The notes beneath the pieces are model-generated. The model ran no database searches. It saw nothing but the letters and a program-made list of their open reading frames with translations, and was not told where the DNA came from. This document shows positions 1 to 3,859 of a stretch of 5,663 nucleotides of DNA, piece by piece (the first letter of the stretch is position 1; every line of letters begins with the position of its first letter). Position numbers and translations under genes: made by a program. Source of the DNA: a virus. Lineage: Duplodnaviria > Heunggongvirae > Uroviricota > Caudoviricetes. The stretch lies in IMG/VR virus record IMGVR_UViG_2703718818_000005, positions 1 to 5,663 of that record; one strand, given 5' to 3'.

Positions 1-60
1 GGTCAGGTATCCCGTCGTGACCAGGAGCGCGCGCTGGCGTGCTGGGGAATCGACAGATAA
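1..60 (+). CDS. 3' end of an upstream gene, probably a phage endolysin (lysozyme-like C-terminus); 5' part lies outside the window
   Basis: Frame 1 reads GQVSRRDQERALACWGIDR then TAA at 58-60. The RR-x-x-ER-x-x-x-C-W-G tail resembles C-termini of lambdoid prophage lysozymes such as RrrD/R21-type, recalled from memory. Its position upstream of Rz/Rz1 fits a lysis cassette. Only 19 codons are visible, so the call is weak. Confidence 0.4.
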   Translation, partial: GQVSRRDQERALACWGIDR

Positions 61-166
61 GCAGAATATTTTGCTGAAAAATGACGTTGATCAACGCGGG
101 CAGATAACACGAAATCCTGCAAACTGGCAAAATGTAAGTGAATAAAGTCAGGCAGATTGTTTCACG

Positions 167-199
167 CAGAGGCACCGTAATGGTGCCTTTGTCATTTAT
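167..199 (+). terminator. Terminator-like hairpin downstream of the endolysin-like gene
   Basis: Inverted repeat AGGCACC (170-176) / GGTGCCT (182-188) with loop GTAAT, extendable to a 10-bp stem (167-191) with one G-U pair, followed by the T-rich run TTGTCATTTAT. The U-tract is interrupted, so this is at best a weak intrinsic terminator. Confidence 0.3.
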
Positions 200-333
200 G
201 CGCTTCGCACAAGCGTAAATAAACCAAAGAACCTTTCAGGATGAGCCCTGGTGGATAACCGGCAGTGGTCTGGTTAACCCTCTTTGGGCTGGTTATTCCT
301 GTGCGCAGGGTTCATCACTAAAAGGAATCAACC

Positions 334-1029
334 ATGAAAGAGATGATTTCTGTCGATCATGAAATATCCATGAGTAGTCTGGATTTTCTGAATAACATTA
401 TTAACCCTATCCGGGTTGAGGCAGGGAAACCACCTCATGAACCGCGTAAGTTCCTTGCAAAAATTGAGGACGAACTTGAGCTTGAGGTAACCTGGAAAAA
501 ATTCCGGTTAAACAATAACCAGACAAGAACGGCATACTATGATCTGGATTTTGACCAGATGATGCTCGTTGGCATGAGAGAGTCAAAGGCCGTTCGTCGT
601 TCTGTGCTGGCAAGGCTCAAAGCGATGCATGGTATTCAGATCCCCCGGACTTTACCTGAGGCGTTGCGATTTGCGGCAAAACTGGCAGAACAGAAAGCAG
701 TGCTGGAAAATCAACTGGCAATAGCAGCGCCGAAGGCTGAATTTGTTGATAACTATGTTGAAGCATCTGGTCTGATGGGATTCCGGGAAGTTGCTAAGTT
801 ACTCGGTATCAAAGAAACCGATTTCCGGCTGTTTTTGTTGGAGAACGGAATAATGTATCGCCTCGCTGGAAAAATGACGCCTTACTCGCATCACCTGGAT
901 GCGGGGCGGTTTAGCGTGAAAACGGGCGAGGCGGGCAATGGTCATGCTTTTACGCAGGTTAAATTCACCCCAAAAGGTGTTCAGTGGATTGCTGGTCTGC
1001 TTGCTGCATGGAGAGCTACCGCAGCATGA
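334..1029 (+). CDS. Phage antirepressor-like protein with a C-terminal KilAC (ANT) domain; N-terminal domain unassigned (possibly Rha/AntA-like)
   Basis: 231-aa ORF with ATG at 334 and an AAGGA Shine-Dalgarno 7 nt upstream. The C-terminal half (VAKLLGI...FRLFLLENGIMY...PYSHHLDAGRFSVK...FTQVKFTPKGVQWIAGLL) matches the pattern I recall for KilAC domains (AK-LG, P-x-Q/H, G-F, T-x-KG-x-x-I). Needs an HMM search to confirm. Confidence 0.75.
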   Translation: MKEMISVDHEISMSSLDFLNNIINPIRVEAGKPPHEPRKFLAKIEDELELEVTWKKFRLNNNQTRTAYYDLDFDQMMLVGMRESKAVRRSVLARLKAMHGIQIPRTLPEALRFAAKLAEQKAVLENQLAIAAPKAEFVDNYVEASGLMGFREVAKLLGIKETDFRLFLLENGIMYRLAGKMTPYSHHLDAGRFSVKTGEAGNGHAFTQVKFTPKGVQWIAGLLAAWRATAA

Positions 1030-1121
1030 AGATGATAAAAATGGACTGGAAATTTTTGCTGGTCTGGCTGATTCCGTTTTTATGGGTGGTTGCCCGGTTA
1101 ATTACTGCTATTAATGGGTAA
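1026..1121 (+). CDS. Candidate micro-ORF, 31-aa single-pass membrane peptide (MKMIKMDWKFLLVWLIPFLWVVARLITAING)
   Basis: ATG at 1026 overlaps the stop of the upstream gene (ATGA). It has a Lys-rich N-terminus followed by a ~20-residue hydrophobic helix and a TAA stop at 1119-1121. No clear Shine-Dalgarno; translational coupling would be needed. Not in the ORF track because of its size. Confidence 0.3.
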   Translation: MKMIKMDWKFLLVWLIPFLWVVARLITAING

Positions 1122-1123
1122 AG

Positions 1124-1255
1124 ATGTCAGACAAACTCATAATGCTGGCGAAGGGCCTTTGTGTAATCGTCGGTATTTCATTTTCACTAATGCTGGTTGT
1201 TCTTTTTCTTTCCATAGCCTGGATGGCGTTGAGTTCGGCAGGGCTGGTGGGGTGA
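1124..1255 (+). CDS. Candidate micro-ORF, 43-aa hydrophobic peptide (MSDKLIMLAKGLCVIVGISFSLMLVVLFLSIAWMALSSAGLVG)
   Basis: ATG at 1124 lies 2 nt after the stop of the previous micro-ORF; TGA at 1253-1255. Almost entirely hydrophobic, giving one long or two short transmembrane segments. It competes with the N-terminal part of the 86-aa track ORF 1114-1374 in another frame. Confidence 0.35.
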   Translation: MSDKLIMLAKGLCVIVGISFSLMLVVLFLSIAWMALSSAGLVG

Positions 1256-1257
1256 CA

Positions 1258-1374
1258 GTGACTGATGACGACAATTTATTTAAACAGATGAGTACTGAAT
1301 TTATTCGGGCAACGGCATTTGCCATTCGCATTGTGGCAATTGCGGTTCTAATCCGGGAAATCCGCTGGTGGTGA
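1258..1374 (+). CDS. Candidate third micro-ORF (GTG start at 1258 or ATG at 1288), amphipathic/hydrophobic peptide ending ...MSTEFIRATAFAIRIVAIAVLIREIRWW
   Basis: Same frame as the 86-aa track ORF. GGTGGGG lies just upstream of GTG 1258. Its stop TGA 1372-1374 sits 1 nt before the methylase ATG. Start and reality are uncertain. Confidence 0.2.
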   Translation: MTDDDNLFKQMSTEFIRATAFAIRIVAIAVLIREIRWW

Positions 1375-1375
1375 A

Positions 1376-2143
1376 ATGAATAATAACTCTGCAAAACCGT
1401 TTCTCCCGTGGTTAGGAGGGAAGCGTCGTCTGGCAAAACATATTCTGCCGTTATTTCCTGAGCACACTCTGTATGTGGAACCGTTCTGTGGCGGTGCGGC
1501 ACTGTTCTTTATGAAAAAACCGAGCTGCGCTGAAATCATCAACGATATAAACAGTGATATCGTTAATCTCTACCGTGTGGTGAAGTACCACCAGGAGGAA
1601 TTTTCCCGCCAGTTTCAGTGGATGCTCGCCAGTCGTGAGATGTGGAATGAGGTGATAAATCAGCACACGGAGTACATGACGGATATCCAGCGGGCTGTCC
1701 GTTTCTTTTTTATCCAGAAGTGCGCGTATGGCGGAAGAGCATACAGTCGGGCATTTGGAGTTAAAACTCACAGACCGCAGATAATCCCCGGGAATACAGA
1801 GCAGTTATTGCAGGAAGCCCGTGATCGGCTGGCGCGGGCAACTATTGAACACCTTGACTGGGAGGTCTGTATCGCACGGTATGACCGCCCGACAACGCTG
1901 TTTTACTGCGATCCTCCGTATTGGTTGGATGGTGGTTACGGCATTGATTTTTCATTCTGCAATTATGAGCGCATGGCAGAACTTGCCCGCACAATAAAAG
2001 GCAAAATGATTATATCCCTGAACGATACGCAGGAAATGAGACGATTGTTTGAGGGGATGAATATTCATCATGTTGCTCATCGTTATACTGTACCACGTGG
2101 TAAGACAAGCAGTGTCAGCGAGCTGATAATCTGCAATTTCTGA
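1376..2143 (+). CDS. Dam-family (D12 class) N6-adenine DNA methyltransferase, phage-borne orphan methylase
   Basis: 255-aa ORF. N-terminal PWLGGKRRL, AdoMet-binding motif I FCGGAALFF (about 1485-1511) and catalytic motif IV DPPY at codons 179-182 (nt 1910-1921). No restriction endonuclease partner is visible in the window. Confidence 0.9.
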   Translation: MNNNSAKPFLPWLGGKRRLAKHILPLFPEHTLYVEPFCGGAALFFMKKPSCAEIINDINSDIVNLYRVVKYHQEEFSRQFQWMLASREMWNEVINQHTEYMTDIQRAVRFFFIQKCAYGGRAYSRAFGVKTHRPQIIPGNTEQLLQEARDRLARATIEHLDWEVCIARYDRPTTLFYCDPPYWLDGGYGIDFSFCNYERMAELARTIKGKMIISLNDTQEMRRLFEGMNIHHVAHRYTVPRGKTSSVSELIICNF

Positions 2144-2151
2144 CAGGGGGC

Positions 2152-2628
2152 ATGGTGAGCATAAACCGAATTCTTTCCGCGTTTACTGTTATTCTGCTGG
2201 TGGTCTGTGGTGCGCTTAGTCTGGGGCTGAATCATTACCGCGATAACGCCATCACCTACAAAGCGCAGCGCGATAAAAAAGCCAGAGAGCTGGAACAGGC
2301 GAATGCCACCATTACTGACATGCAGGTGCGCCAGCGTGATGTTGCTGCGCTCGATGCAAAATACTCGAGGGAATTAGCCGATGCGAGAGCTGAAAATGAA
2401 ACTCTGCGCGCTGATGTTGCCGCTGGTCGTAAGCGCCTGCGGATCAACGCCACCTGCTCCGGTACCGTGCGTGAAGCCACCGGCACCTCCGGCGTGGGCA
2501 ATGATGCCGCCGTCGAACTCTCTCCGGTTGCTGGACGAAACGTTCTCGGTATCAGAGACGGAATCATCAGCGACCTGGCTGCATTGAGAATGCTTCAGGA
2601 ATATATCCGCACTCAGTGTATTAACTAG
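2152..2628 (+). CDS. Rz: Rz-like i-spanin (inner-membrane spanin subunit)
   Basis: 158 aa. An N-terminal transmembrane helix (ILSAFTVILLVVCGALSLGL) is followed by NHYRDNAITYKAQRDK...MQVRQRDVAALDAKY...DVAAGRKRL, which is near-colinear with lambda Rz as recalled. GGGGG Shine-Dalgarno before ATG 2152, 8 nt after the methylase stop. Confidence 0.92.
   Translation: MVSINRILSAFTVILLVVCGALSLGLNHYRDNAITYKAQRDKKARELEQANATITDMQVRQRDVAALDAKYSRELADARAENETLRADVAAGRKRLRINATCSGTVREATGTSGVGNDAAVELSPVAGRNVLGIRDGIISDLAALRMLQEYIRTQCIN
2381..2587 (+). CDS. Rz1: Rz1-like o-spanin (outer-membrane lipoprotein), embedded in the +1 frame of Rz
   Basis: 68-aa ORF wholly inside Rz. Signal peptide MRELKMKLCALMLPLVVSAC with lipobox V-S-A-C (Cys codon 2438-2440), then a proline-rich mature part CGSTPPAPVPCVKPPAPPAW that parallels lambda Rz1 CVKPPPPPAW. 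GAGGGA lies 8 nt upstream of ATG 2381; ATG 2396 is an alternative start. Confidence 0.85.
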   Translation: MRELKMKLCALMLPLVVSACGSTPPAPVPCVKPPAPPAWAMMPPSNSLRLLDETFSVSETESSATWLH

Positions 2629-2651
2629 TATTTTTGTTATTCGGAGAATGC

Positions 2652-2864
2652 ATGAAGAAATTACTGGTAACCGTAAAGCCTTTTCAGGGAACAATTCCGT
2701 TCCGTATTTTGCAGCGTGGTCGTGTTCTTGTTGAAGGTTCGTTCAGTGGTAAATGTACGCAATTACACTCCCGGACCTTTCAGGTGAATGCCACGAATGA
2801 AGAGCTAACCGTTGAGTGTACGATGAATGCCGCTAAATGCCGCATGGTATCCGCTGCATTTTGA
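2652..2864 (+). CDS. Hypothetical 70-aa protein between the spanins and cos (MKKLLVTVKPFQGTIPFRILQRGRVLVEGSFSGKCTQLHSRTFQVNATNEELTVECTMNAAKCRMVSAAF)
   Basis: ATG at 2652 with a GGAGAA Shine-Dalgarno 6 nt upstream; the track ORF begins at an in-frame TTG at 2634. No family recognised by eye. Three Cys, no obvious signal peptide. Confidence 0.5.
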   Translation: MKKLLVTVKPFQGTIPFRILQRGRVLVEGSFSGKCTQLHSRTFQVNATNEELTVECTMNAAKCRMVSAAF

Positions 2865-3087: not shown

Positions 3088-3117
3088 TTTCGCGGGTCCT
3101 TTCCGGCGATCCGGGCC
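3088..3117. other. cosQ-like cos-proximal segment upstream of cosN
   Basis: TTTCGCGGGTCCTTTCCGGCGATCCGGGCC is near-identical to the lambda right-end sequence TTTACGGGTCCTTTCCGGTGATCCGACAGG that I recall preceding cosN, where cosQ resides. Exact cosQ boundaries are not determinable from memory. Confidence 0.4.
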
Positions 3118-3139
3118 GTTACGGGGCGGCGACCTCGCG
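3118..3139. other. cosN, terminase nicking site; 12-nt cohesive end GGGCGGCGACCT at 3124-3135
   Basis: GTTACGGGGCGGCGACCTCGCG matches the lambda cosN core as recalled, and the 12-mer at 3124-3135 equals the lambda cohesive end. The following ~25 nt (CGCGCGTTTTCACTATTTATGAGATTTT) also track the lambda left end. It sits immediately upstream of a Nu1/A terminase pair. Confidence 0.85.
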
Positions 3140-3352: not shown

Positions 3353-3859
3353 ATGGCCTTTTTATTGAATAAAAGTGATATGGCCTCCTCCATCGGTATC
3401 TCTGTTCAGGCATTTGATAAATGGGGCGTTCCTCCTGTTGAACGTCGGGGGAGGGAAGTTTTATATGACGTTAAAACTGTACTGGAGATAGATCGCGAGC
3501 GGCGACAACACAATCAGAGAACACCTGATGACGGGGGAGAACTGGAGGAAAGGCTGCTTCGGGCCAGAGCTGAACTGACAGAAGAACAGGCTGTAGCTCA
3601 AAAACTTAAAAATCAGGTAACCGAAGGTAAGCTCATTGATTCAGACTTCTGCGTTTTCGCCCTCAGCAAACTGGCGATGGCATTGTCCAGTACGCTTGAT
3701 TCCATTCCGTTATCCATGCAGCGACAGTTCCCGGATTTAACGCCACGTCATATTGACCATCTGAAAACCCTTATTGCAAAGGGCGCAAATCAGTGTGCGC
3801 GGGCAGGGGATAAATTACCGGATTTGCTGGATGAATATATCAGAGCAACAACTGAATAA
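3353..3859 (+). CDS. nu1: Terminase small subunit, Nu1-like
   Basis: 168 aa from ATG 3353, preceded by GGAGAGGAG. Aligns by eye with lambda Nu1: EVLYD, FCVFALSKLAMALSSTLDSIPLSMQRQFPDLTPRHIDHLK versus lambda FCTFVLSRIAGEIASILDGLPLSVQRRFPELENRHVDFLK, and an EYI motif near the C-terminus. The track ORF start at 3248 is an in-frame upstream extension running into cosB; 3335 is another in-frame ATG without a Shine-Dalgarno. Confidence 0.88.
   Translation: MAFLLNKSDMASSIGISVQAFDKWGVPPVERRGREVLYDVKTVLEIDRERRQHNQRTPDDGGELEERLLRARAELTEEQAVAQKLKNQVTEGKLIDSDFCVFALSKLAMALSSTLDSIPLSMQRQFPDLTPRHIDHLKTLIAKGANQCARAGDKLPDLLDEYIRATTE

What the first reader, a model, noticed from the sequence alone, without database searches (positions are those of the whole stretch)
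1..2151. Lysis cassette split by a ~2.1 kb cargo module between the endolysin-like gene and the spanins
In canonical lambdoid late operons, holin, endolysin and Rz/Rz1 are contiguous. Here the endolysin-like ORF ends at 60 and Rz starts at 2152. The interval holds a KilAC-domain antirepressor-like gene, two or three micro-ORFs for hydrophobic peptides and a Dam-family methylase, all on the same strand. From 1026 to 1378 the stop/start junctions overlap or are 1-2 nt apart (except one 32-nt gap if the third micro-ORF starts at ATG 1288), and only 8 nt separate the methylase stop from the Rz start. That packing suggests one translationally coupled unit carried on the late transcript. I recall ant-like genes between R and Rz in some Stx-type lambdoid phages, but I know of no assigned function for such modules, and the micro-ORF plus methylase combination is not something I can place. 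Candidate roles are anti-restriction, superinfection exclusion or modulation of lysis timing.
Basis: partly seen in the sequence, partly recalled or inferred. Interest (0 to 1): 0.65.

Follow-up and report, generated by a model that had tools for sequence, protein, structure and literature searches.

The report
Swappable cargo slot inside phage lysis cassette
Between the cell-wall enzyme gene and the outer-membrane-disruption genes of an E. coli lambda-like prophage lies a known variable cargo site, here holding a rare mix of an "antirepressor-like" gene, three tiny membrane-peptide genes and a lone DNA adenine methylase; the layout is real, but it is a mosaic of interchangeable parts, not one new machine.

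Summary
Bases 1-60 are the end of a lysozyme R gene. Rz/Rz1 start at 2152.

R-ant-Rz has been annotated in 933W, Stx2 phage II and phi-O153 for years. The 2.1 kb interval is not one unit. It is a mosaic of at least three parts that assort independently:
- a conserved structured leader (147-333) plus an ant gene, which can be either of two unrelated types;
- small single-helix membrane peptides (m1, m2, m3), where m3 is a deletion fusion of two tandem paralogues;
- an orphan Dam-family methylase, always placed directly upstream of Rz.

The same arrangement occurs at 99.3% identity in other E. coli assemblies. The exact Dam protein is on about 990 public contigs. It is in only 3 of 5,426 complete E. 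coli genomes and in none of 50,697 phage records.

No internal promoter, LexA box, restriction partner or defence-system match was found. The most likely reading is late-operon cargo transcribed by Q-antiterminated polymerase. Functions are inferred, not shown: methylation of progeny DNA, SOS or repressor modulation, and membrane or lysis modulation. GATC specificity is unproven.

Verdict: a new variant of a known kind, of modest interest.

The parts
1..60 (+). 3' end of lysozyme R. In related loci this is a SAR-type endolysin that follows a 71-aa class II holin.
   Evidence: The translation matches the C-terminus of annotated 177-aa lysozymes. PF00959 and PF04971 are found on the upstream genes of related loci.
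61..146 (+). R-proximal spacer shared by almost all variants of this site, including those without an ant gene.
   Evidence: Matches of 86-92% identity limited to the first 86 nt of the leader (H194-H200). L006 aligns to window 1-146 only.
147..333 (+). Leader of the ant cassette. It holds a terminator-like hairpin (166-192; core stem 171-187 followed by TTTGTCATTT), a second hairpin (about 200-216), and a long hairpin (232-325) whose base pairs CCUUU (232-236) with AAAGG (321-325). AAAGG is the Shine-Dalgarno sequence of ant.
   Evidence: RNA fold of 61-333 gives z=-3.9. Hairpin 1 has dG -18.8 and z -5.5; the long hairpin has dG -43 and z -3.5. The base stem is invariant and one pair is compensatory (CG to UA). 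Phage ECP1 has a non-homologous hairpin plus U-run at the same position, and there the leader precedes an HNH gene. There is no Rfam match.
334..1029 (+). KilAC (ANT) domain protein of 231 aa, annotated 'antirepressor'. No recognisable N-terminal regulatory domain.
   Evidence: PF03374 2.7e-28 over residues 125-224. phrog_63 'anti-repressor Ant' 3.6e-56, matching only profile positions 122-359 of 431. No Pfam hit in residues 1-124 even at E<=10. No PDB relative by sequence.
1026..1121 (+). m1: 31-aa single-helix membrane peptide. Its start overlaps the ant stop (ATGA).
   Evidence: GRAVY 1.16; T at 55% of second codon positions. phrog_6632, 8e-4. Deposited as 'membrane protein' or 'prophage protein'. 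It forms the C-terminal part of a 70-aa ORF in the 569R3-type variant.
1124..1255 (+). m2: 43-aa single-helix membrane peptide, the most widespread of the micro-ORFs.
   Evidence: phrog_4906, 1.7e-23. The frame is open with the same stop in 10 of 10 distinct variants, whereas the overlapping 86-aa frame lacks its start or has stops in 5 of 10. GRAVY 1.80. Found in 30 Escherichia phage records by tblastn.
1258..1374 (+). m3: 38 aa from GTG 1258, or 28 aa from ATG 1288. It fuses the first codons of m3a to the paralogue m3b.
   Evidence: PhiR5_1 and 569R3 carry m3a (38 aa) and m3b (28 aa) in tandem; the window lacks the body of m3a. m3a and m3b are similar (local score z 5.1; 0 of 500 shuffles reach it). 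RefSeq marks the homologue as a partial pseudogene.
1376..2143 (+). Orphan Dam-family (D12 class, alpha-type motif order) N6-adenine DNA methyltransferase, 255 aa.
   Evidence: PF02086 4.4e-27. TIGR00571 scores 115.2 against a cutoff of 114.85. PADLOC MTase_II 3.8e-92, with no neighbouring nuclease hit. Best PDB matches are DpnM at 1e-17 and EcoDam at 3e-15, with EPFCGGAALF and DPPY aligned.
1251..1255 (+). GGTGA, left copy of a 5-bp direct repeat that bounds the 903-bp segment absent from the common Dam-less variant.
   Evidence: Alignment with L001 and L004...GGCTGGTGGGGTGA|GCATAAACC.
2154..2158 (+). GGTGA, right copy of the same repeat, inside the Rz start region.
2152..2628 (+). Rz i-spanin. 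The start may be ATG 2152 or GTG 2155.
   Evidence: PF03245 3.2e-39.
2381..2587 (+). Rz1 o-spanin lipoprotein embedded in Rz in the +1 frame (lipobox VSAC).
   Evidence: PF06085 6.8e-21; sequence.

Best explanation
The interval between lysozyme R and spanins Rz/Rz1 in 933W/phage-21-type lambdoid prophages of E. coli is a recombination-prone cargo site inside the late operon. The window carries a rare mosaic built from three interchangeable cassettes.

1. A leader-plus-ant cassette (147-1029, with m1). An intrinsic-terminator-like hairpin and a long hairpin that buries the ant ribosome-binding site would keep the gene silent unless Q-modified, terminator-resistant polymerase arrives from pR'.
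2. Small single-pass membrane peptides (m1, m2, and m3 = an m3a/m3b fusion).
3. An orphan Dam-family adenine methylase, always placed directly upstream of Rz.

Shown here: the anatomy, the domain identities, the independent assortment of the parts, and the breakpoints at gene boundaries (a GGTGA microhomology, and the shared m3b stop/next-gene start motif GGTGGTGA-N-ATGAA, where N is A or T).

Inferred:
- All genes are made late, together with the lysis proteins, by read-through and by re-initiation at closely spaced starts.
- The methylase modifies progeny genomes just before packaging. This would protect them from restriction in the next host, or ensure full methylation when host Dam is outpaced.
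- The KilAC protein acts on the host SOS/RecA system or on repressors.
- The peptides act at the inner membrane, either on lysis timing of the pinholin/SAR-endolysin system or on exclusion.
For: - Slot variants. R-KilAC-m1-m2-Rz (L001, L004). R-KilAC-m1-m2-m3a-m3b-Rz (L005). R-P22_AR_N ant-m2'-Rz (933W, Stx2 II, L007). R-P22_AR_N ant-m2'-m3-Dam-Rz (L002, L003, most places). R-70aa-m2-m3a-m3b-Rz (L006), and the same with Dam added (L011). The window's type occurs in L015 and L017 (99.3% over 1-2618).
- Breakpoints lie at start and stop codons.
- All 10 sampled genomic places of the exact Dam protein are in this slot directly before Rz, four of them downstream of stx genes.
- All genes are on one strand. 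The promoter scan finds fewer sites than shuffles give and none in 61-333. No LexA box is present in the leader.
- The terminator-like hairpin and the SD-sequestering hairpin are supported by fold statistics, by one compensatory pair, and by a positionally equivalent but unrelated terminator in ECP1.
- Catalytic motifs of the methylase are intact, and the identical protein is seen on 992 contigs.
- Homologous methylases (45-58% aa) lie near late or lysis genes in other temperate phages: after tail gene D in VP882, and two genes from the holin, on the opposite strand, in KP12. In B3 the match lies over features annotated as Dam methylase and Com translational regulator.
- The KilAC domain of Listeria phage protein AriS was shown experimentally to inhibit the SOS response (PMC9043618).
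Against: - No expression data. Late co-transcription is inferred only from strand, spacing and the absence of consensus promoters.
- The promoter scan covers sigma-70 consensus only.
- The micro-ORFs show only weak coding constraint (pN/pS 0.78 for m2, no better than a non-coding frame).
- m3 is a deletion product that RefSeq calls a pseudogene.
- The residues EcoDam uses to read GATC (K9 and the NGLxR...FNVPxGRYK hairpin, per my recollection of the EcoDam-DNA structure paper) are not conserved in the alignment. The methylase target is therefore unknown.
- The E. coli host already has Dam, which weakens a simple GATC anti-restriction role.
- Support for the leader structure rests on three sequence classes and a single compensatory pair.
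Confidence: 0.6

Rival explanations
1. One reading: 334-2143 is one translationally coupled functional unit with a single purpose (anti-restriction, exclusion or lysis timing), inherited as a block.
For: Junctions of -4, 2, 2, 1 and 8 nt on one strand. The block 1-2618 recurs intact at 99.3% identity in L015 and L017.
Against: Each part is found without the others. The KilAC gene occurs without Dam in at least 166 complete E. coli genomes at 99% identity or more. Dam occurs with an unrelated ant gene or with none. m3b directly abuts Rz in PhiR5_1. Close spacing is the norm in phage operons and is kept at every recombinant joint.
Confidence: 0.1
2. Largely inert passenger DNA. The micro-ORFs are not genes, and the cargo is decaying sequence in defective prophages without selective value.
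For: pN/pS of about 0.8 for m2. m3 is a deletion fusion flagged as a pseudogene. One PHROG family (3246) appears to be built on a frame that is broken in half of the variants. The Dam-less deletion variant is far more common.
Against: The m2 frame is open with conserved length in 10 of 10 variants down to 74% aa identity, and is strongly hydrophobic with T-rich second codon positions. The Dam and KilAC ORFs are intact and identical on hundreds of contigs. The slot is present in inducible, plaque-forming phages such as 933W, Lys8385Vzw and PhiR5_1.
Confidence: 0.15
3. A defence or restriction-modification element: the methylase protects the prophage and host from a partner toxin or nuclease encoded nearby, for example by the small ORFs.
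For: The best PADLOC model is 'Type II methyltransferase' (3.8e-92), with a weak hit to PD-Lambda-5_B (3e-18).
Against: No neighbouring ORF on either strand matches any nuclease or defence family. Neighbours of Dam vary between loci, while Rz is always next. Peptides of 31-43 aa cannot be restriction enzymes.
Confidence: 0.05

Closest known systems
R-ant-Rz arrangement of Stx phages (933W ST933Wp46, Stx2 phage II 'ant', phi-O153, YYZ-2008)
   Same: Same site, the same conserved leader after R (79-97% identity in 265 phage records), the same strand, and a following m2-type small ORF before Rz.
   Different: Those phages carry a 189-aa P22_AR_N/ORF11CD3 protein (258 phage records). The window carries an unrelated 231-aa KilAC protein (7 phage records), plus m1, m3 and a methylase that no phage record has at nucleotide level.
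Orphan Dam-family methylases of temperate phages (VP882, phiHAP-1, phiE125 gp27, B3, KP12). More distantly EcoDam, DpnM and T4 Dam.
   Same: D12-class fold motifs. No cognate nuclease. In VP882 and KP12 the gene lies near late or lysis genes.
   Different: Only 45-58% aa identity. The best species-representative genomes reach at most 59%. Insertion inside a lysis cassette. The GATC-reading hairpin of EcoDam/DpnM is not conserved. This is not the Stx-phage methylases M.EcoVT2Dam or M.EcoGV described in STEC methylomes (PMC6602927). I infer that from its absence at nucleotide level in all but 3 complete genomes.
Listeria phage AriS and other KilAC-domain regulators
   Same: C-terminal PF03374 domain. 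In AriS that domain alone inhibits the SOS response (PMC9043618).
   Different: AriS-like proteins carry an AntA/B, Bro-N or pRha N-terminal domain. None is detectable here. Different host phylum. No activity has been tested.
P2 lysA, a membrane protein gene between endolysin K and spanins lysB/lysC that shifts lysis timing (from my own knowledge; not checked with tools)
   Same: Membrane protein gene(s) placed between the endolysin and spanin genes.
   Different: No sequence relationship. P2 LysA is larger with several helices, whereas m1-m3 are 31-43 aa single-helix peptides. The lysis system is also different (pinholin plus SAR endolysin).
Morons of lambdoid phages (Hendrix/Juhala sense)
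   Same: Dispensable genes inserted between essential late genes, variable between relatives, with slightly lower G+C (0.43-0.50 against 0.53-0.58 in Rz).
   Different: No own promoter was detected and there is no terminator downstream. Instead a terminator-like hairpin sits upstream.

Membership tests
Lambdoid lysis cassette (holin - endolysin - Rz/Rz1) | Endolysin gene immediately upstream on the same strand | tested here: met
   Bases 1-60 match the C-terminus of annotated 177-aa lysozymes (PF00959 in related loci).
Lambdoid lysis cassette (holin - endolysin - Rz/Rz1) | Rz i-spanin with an embedded +1-frame Rz1 lipoprotein | tested here: met
   PF03245 3e-39 and PF06085 7e-21. Rz1 lies at 2381-2587 inside Rz at 2152-2628, with lipobox VSAC.
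Lambdoid lysis cassette (holin - endolysin - Rz/Rz1) | Holin gene upstream of the endolysin | not testable with these tools
   It lies outside the window. Loci matching window 1-2618 at 99.3% identity have a 71-aa PF04971 holin upstream.
Dam family / D12-class N6-adenine DNA methyltransferase | Significant match to the family models above curated cutoffs | tested here: met
   PF02086 scores 95.9 bits (cutoff 22). TIGR00571 scores 115.2 bits (cutoff 114.85, so barely above).
Dam family / D12-class N6-adenine DNA methyltransferase | AdoMet-binding motif near the N-terminus and catalytic DPPY near the C-terminus (alpha order) | tested here: met
   EPFCGGAALF aligns to EPFVGGGALF of DpnM. CDPPYW aligns to DPPY of DpnM and EcoDam.
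Dam family / D12-class N6-adenine DNA methyltransferase | GATC target specificity (EcoDam K9 and the hairpin residues L122, R124 and P134 that contact the bases; contacts recalled from the EcoDam-DNA structure paper) | tested here: inconclusive
   In the HMMER alignment K9 aligns to Pro, R124 falls in a gap, and FNVPFGRYK aligns to AFGVKTHRPQ. A different loop could still read GATC. No characterised close relative was found.
Dam family / D12-class N6-adenine DNA methyltransferase | Orphan status (no cognate restriction enzyme) | tested here: met
   No nuclease or defence family on neighbouring ORFs of either strand.
KilAC/ANT 'antirepressor' proteins | PF03374 domain | tested here: met
   E=2.7e-28, residues 125-224.
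KilAC/ANT 'antirepressor' proteins | N-terminal regulatory domain (AntA/B, Bro-N or pRha) as in AriS-like and P1 Ant proteins | tested here: not met
   No Pfam domain in residues 1-124 at E<=10. The phrog_63 match starts at profile position 122.
KilAC/ANT 'antirepressor' proteins | Binding or inactivation of a phage repressor, or inhibition of SOS | not testable with these tools
   Needs experiment. The only functional data found are for Listeria AriS.
Moron (autonomous transcription unit inside a late operon) | Own promoter upstream and terminator downstream | tested here: not met
   No sigma-70-like site in 61-333, and the total found is below what shuffles give. No terminator between dam and Rz. 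The terminator-like hairpin lies upstream.
P22 immI-type ant region | Ant of the P22 type with Mnt/Arc repressors and sar antisense RNA | tested here: not met
   The window's protein is KilAC, not P22_AR_N. There are no small repressor ORFs and no Rfam match.

The most novel reading that the evidence does not exclude
The R-Rz site is a dedicated late-expression dock. A portable RNA leader (terminator plus a hairpin that buries the ribosome-binding site) gates interchangeable host-manipulation genes. The tiny membrane peptides m1-m3 are a new class of modulators of pinholin/SAR-endolysin lysis timing or of superinfection exclusion. The methylase, with a non-canonical recognition loop, marks progeny DNA with a motif other than GATC to evade restriction in new hosts.
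Probability: 0.15. Interest if true: 0.55.

Novelty: new variant of a known kind. Interest (0 to 1): 0.3.

Why it matters
Stx-type prophages drive the evolution of pathogenic E. coli, and their late operon also carries the toxin genes. This analysis shows that the R-Rz interval is a combinatorial cargo site, not a fixed 'ant' gene. It separates that cargo into leader, ant, peptide and methylase cassettes, which gives a clear map for deletion and expression experiments. It also flags likely annotation problems:
- The label 'antirepressor' rests on domain names only.
- One PHROG family is probably built on a wrong reading frame.
- m3 is a fusion remnant.

If the methylase turns out to have a new specificity, or the peptides affect lysis timing, that would matter for phage release and toxin release. 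As it stands the finding is an unusual assortment of known kinds of parts.

Tried and rejected
- Rfam scan of the whole window at E<=1: no match, so the leader is not a described RNA family.
- Sigma-70 promoter and terminator scan: nothing above the shuffle expectation. The scan also missed hairpin 166-192, which I then folded directly.
- LexA-box search: no site in the leader.
- Codon-position and pN/pS tests on m2: not decisive. A frame full of stops gave a similar ratio. I relied instead on whether each ORF stays open across variants.
- PADLOC: only methylase models matched, with no defence partner.
- PDB by sequence for the KilAC protein: nothing significant.
- Minus-strand ORFs at 1137-1502, 1451-1771, 407-613 and 1348-1542: no PHROG match. 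They mirror the hydrophobic coding frames.
- Known prophage sRNAs (AgvB/AsxR, Pas): the papers place them downstream of pR' or between the esterase and holin genes, not after R.
- Literature on a function for the R-Rz ant gene, or on a Dam gene at this place: none found.
- The phiE125 paper that I recall as showing N6-methyladenine in phage DNA is not held, so that point stays a recollection.
- Structure prediction was not run. A Dam fold would not settle specificity, and alignments built from fetched loci are not accepted by that tool.
Full report
**What is in the window.** All features below are on the + strand.
- Bases 1-60 end an ORF whose translation (…RRDQERALACWGIDR*) matches the C-terminus of the 177-aa lysozyme R annotated in Stx-type phages and E. 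coli prophages.
- A 273-nt non-coding stretch follows.
- 334-1029 encodes a 231-aa protein with a C-terminal KilAC/ANT domain.
- Three micro-ORFs follow: m1 at 1026-1121, m2 at 1124-1255, and m3 at 1258 or 1288 to 1374.
- 1376-2143 encodes a 255-aa D12-class adenine methylase.
- Rz (2152-2628) has Rz1 embedded at 2381-2587.
- Downstream are a 70-aa ORF, a lambda-type cohesive-end site (GGGCGGCGACCT at 3124-3135), Nu1 and the large terminase.

**The site is a known variable slot.**
Stx2 phage II, YYZ-2008 and phi-O153 are annotated the same way.
- That classical ant is a 189-aa P22_AR_N/ORF11CD3 protein present in 258 phage records.
- The window's KilAC gene is unrelated and is in only 7 phage records. 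It matches at 99% or more in 166 complete E. coli genomes.
- No phage record and no complete E. coli genome covers 80% of window 1-2700.

**The interval is a mosaic.** Alignment with two reference variants shows three segments.
- Window 1-1118 follows the 'KilAC' variant (L004).
- From 1119 onward the window follows the 'P22_AR_N + Dam' variant (L002).
- Relative to the Dam-less variant, 903 bp (1256-2158, equivalently 1251-2153) are an indel bounded by a GGTGA direct repeat.

More variants exist.
- PhiR5_1 has KilAC-m1-m2-m3a-m3b-Rz.
- 569R3 has a 70-aa ORF, m2, m3a, m3b and Rz, with no ant gene.
- PPyecE_EH1910 has P22_AR_N ant, m2' and Rz.
- A look-up of the exact Dam protein found it in 1,213 index blocks. 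All ten places shown lie in this slot directly upstream of Rz, four of them downstream of stx genes. Its partners there are the P22_AR_N ant, the KilAC ant (L015 and L017, which match window 1-2618 at 99.3%), or no ant gene (L011).

So the ant type, the peptides and the methylase assort independently, and the joints fall at start and stop codons. One example is the motif GGTGGTGA-N-ATGAA (N = A or T), which is shared by the m3b-to-Dam joint and the m3b-to-Rz joint.

**The micro-ORFs.**
- All three are strongly hydrophobic single-helix peptides with T-rich second codon positions.
- They match PHROG families of unknown function: m2 matches phrog_4906 at 1.7e-23. They have been deposited as 'membrane protein' or 'hypothetical protein'.
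- The m2 frame is open, with the same length, in 10 of 10 distinct variants down to 74% aa identity.
- The overlapping 86-aa ORF (1114-1374) matches phrog_3246 at 2e-36. However, it lacks its start or contains stops in half of the variants, so it is probably a wrong-frame call.
- Substitution ratios are uninformative (pN/pS 0.78).
- m3a and m3b are tandem paralogues (z 5.1). The window's m3 joins the first codons of m3a to m3b. This explains RefSeq's 'partial' flag.

**The methylase.**
- It passes Pfam PF02086 and, barely, TIGR00571 'dam'.
- It has the AdoMet motif and DPPY in alpha order. Its best solved relatives are DpnM and EcoDam.
- It has no nuclease partner.
- The closest phage proteins are 45-58% identical. 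In VP882 the homologue follows tail gene D. In KP12 it lies two genes from the holin on the opposite strand. In B3 the match lies over features annotated as Dam methylase and Com translational regulator.
- Among species-representative genomes nothing exceeds 59%, so the E. coli lineage is isolated.
- The K9 and hairpin residues that, as I recall from the EcoDam-DNA structure paper, read GATC are not conserved in the alignment. GATC specificity is therefore a guess.
- GATC is not depleted in the window: 25 sites against about 22 expected.

**The KilAC protein.**
- Only the C-terminal domain is recognisable. Residues 1-124 have no Pfam match. The protein aligns to the middle and end of a longer Ant profile.
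- The only experimental result I found for this domain is that the KilAC domain of Listeria phage AriS inhibits the bacterial SOS response (PMC9043618).
- The label 'antirepressor' is therefore unverified.

**The leader.**
- Positions 61-146 are shared with nearly all variants.
- Positions 147-333 accompany both ant types, and in phage ECP1 they precede an HNH gene.
- The region folds well below shuffled controls (z -3.9).
- A GC-rich hairpin followed by TTTGTCATTT looks like an intrinsic terminator (dG -18.8). ECP1 has an unrelated hairpin plus U-run at the same place.
- A long hairpin pairs CCUUU (232-236) with AAAGG (321-325), which is the ant ribosome-binding site. Its base stem is invariant and it has one compensatory pair.
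- No promoter, LexA box or Rfam family was found.

My inference is a double lock that keeps the cargo silent unless Q-antiterminated polymerase reads through.

**Most likely mechanism and verdict.** The cargo is probably expressed late with the lysis genes.
- The methylase would modify progeny DNA before packaging.
- The KilAC protein would act on SOS or on repressors.
- The peptides would act at the membrane.

The anatomy and the assortment are shown here. The timing and the functions are inferred. The one-module reading is weakened, and the junk-DNA and defence-system readings are less likely.

This is a rare combination within a long-annotated variable site: a new variant of a known kind, of modest interest.

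Noticed in passing
window 147-333; L022 (phage ECP1) 2501-2633: The structured leader (terminator-like hairpin plus a hairpin that buries the ribosome-binding site) travels with two unrelated ant genes. In ECP1 it sits directly upstream of an HNH endonuclease gene. It therefore behaves like a portable regulatory element. No Rfam family matches it.
   Followed up: partly
window 1114-1374: An 86-aa ORF overlapping m2 in another frame matches phrog_3246 at 2e-36. Its start is missing or it has in-frame stops in 5 of 10 variants, so that PHROG family seems to rest on wrong-frame gene calls.
   Followed up: yes
L005 2758-2972 and L006 961-1175, compared with window 1258-1374: m3a and m3b are tandem paralogous peptides sharing the core RAxAFAIxxVA. 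The window keeps only a fusion of the two.
   Followed up: yes
window 3124-3135: Lambda-type cohesive end GGGCGGCGACCT, followed by Nu1 (3353-3859) and terminase A. The cargo therefore lies about 1 kb from the right end of the virion DNA. A GATC site (3108-3111) sits 13 nt before the cohesive-end sequence.
   Followed up: no
window 2652-2864: A 70-aa ORF right after Rz (phrog_2571, unknown function, 2.8e-27). It is conserved and annotated 'hypothetical' in related prophages. 933W has bor on the opposite strand at this position instead.
   Followed up: no
L002 1933-2490, L004 1225-2392, L005 72-915 (related loci): The interval between holin S and lysozyme R is a second variable cargo site. It is empty in some loci and holds a 185-aa hypothetical gene, a DUF1327 gene, or DUF1327 plus other ORFs in others.
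   Followed up: no
window 2152-2170 compared with L004 4251-4270: The Rz start differs between variants. The window has ATG 2152 or GTG 2155 behind AGGGGG. In the Dam-less variant the m2 stop overlaps a GTG (GTGA), and annotators start Rz 16 nt further down.
   Followed up: partly
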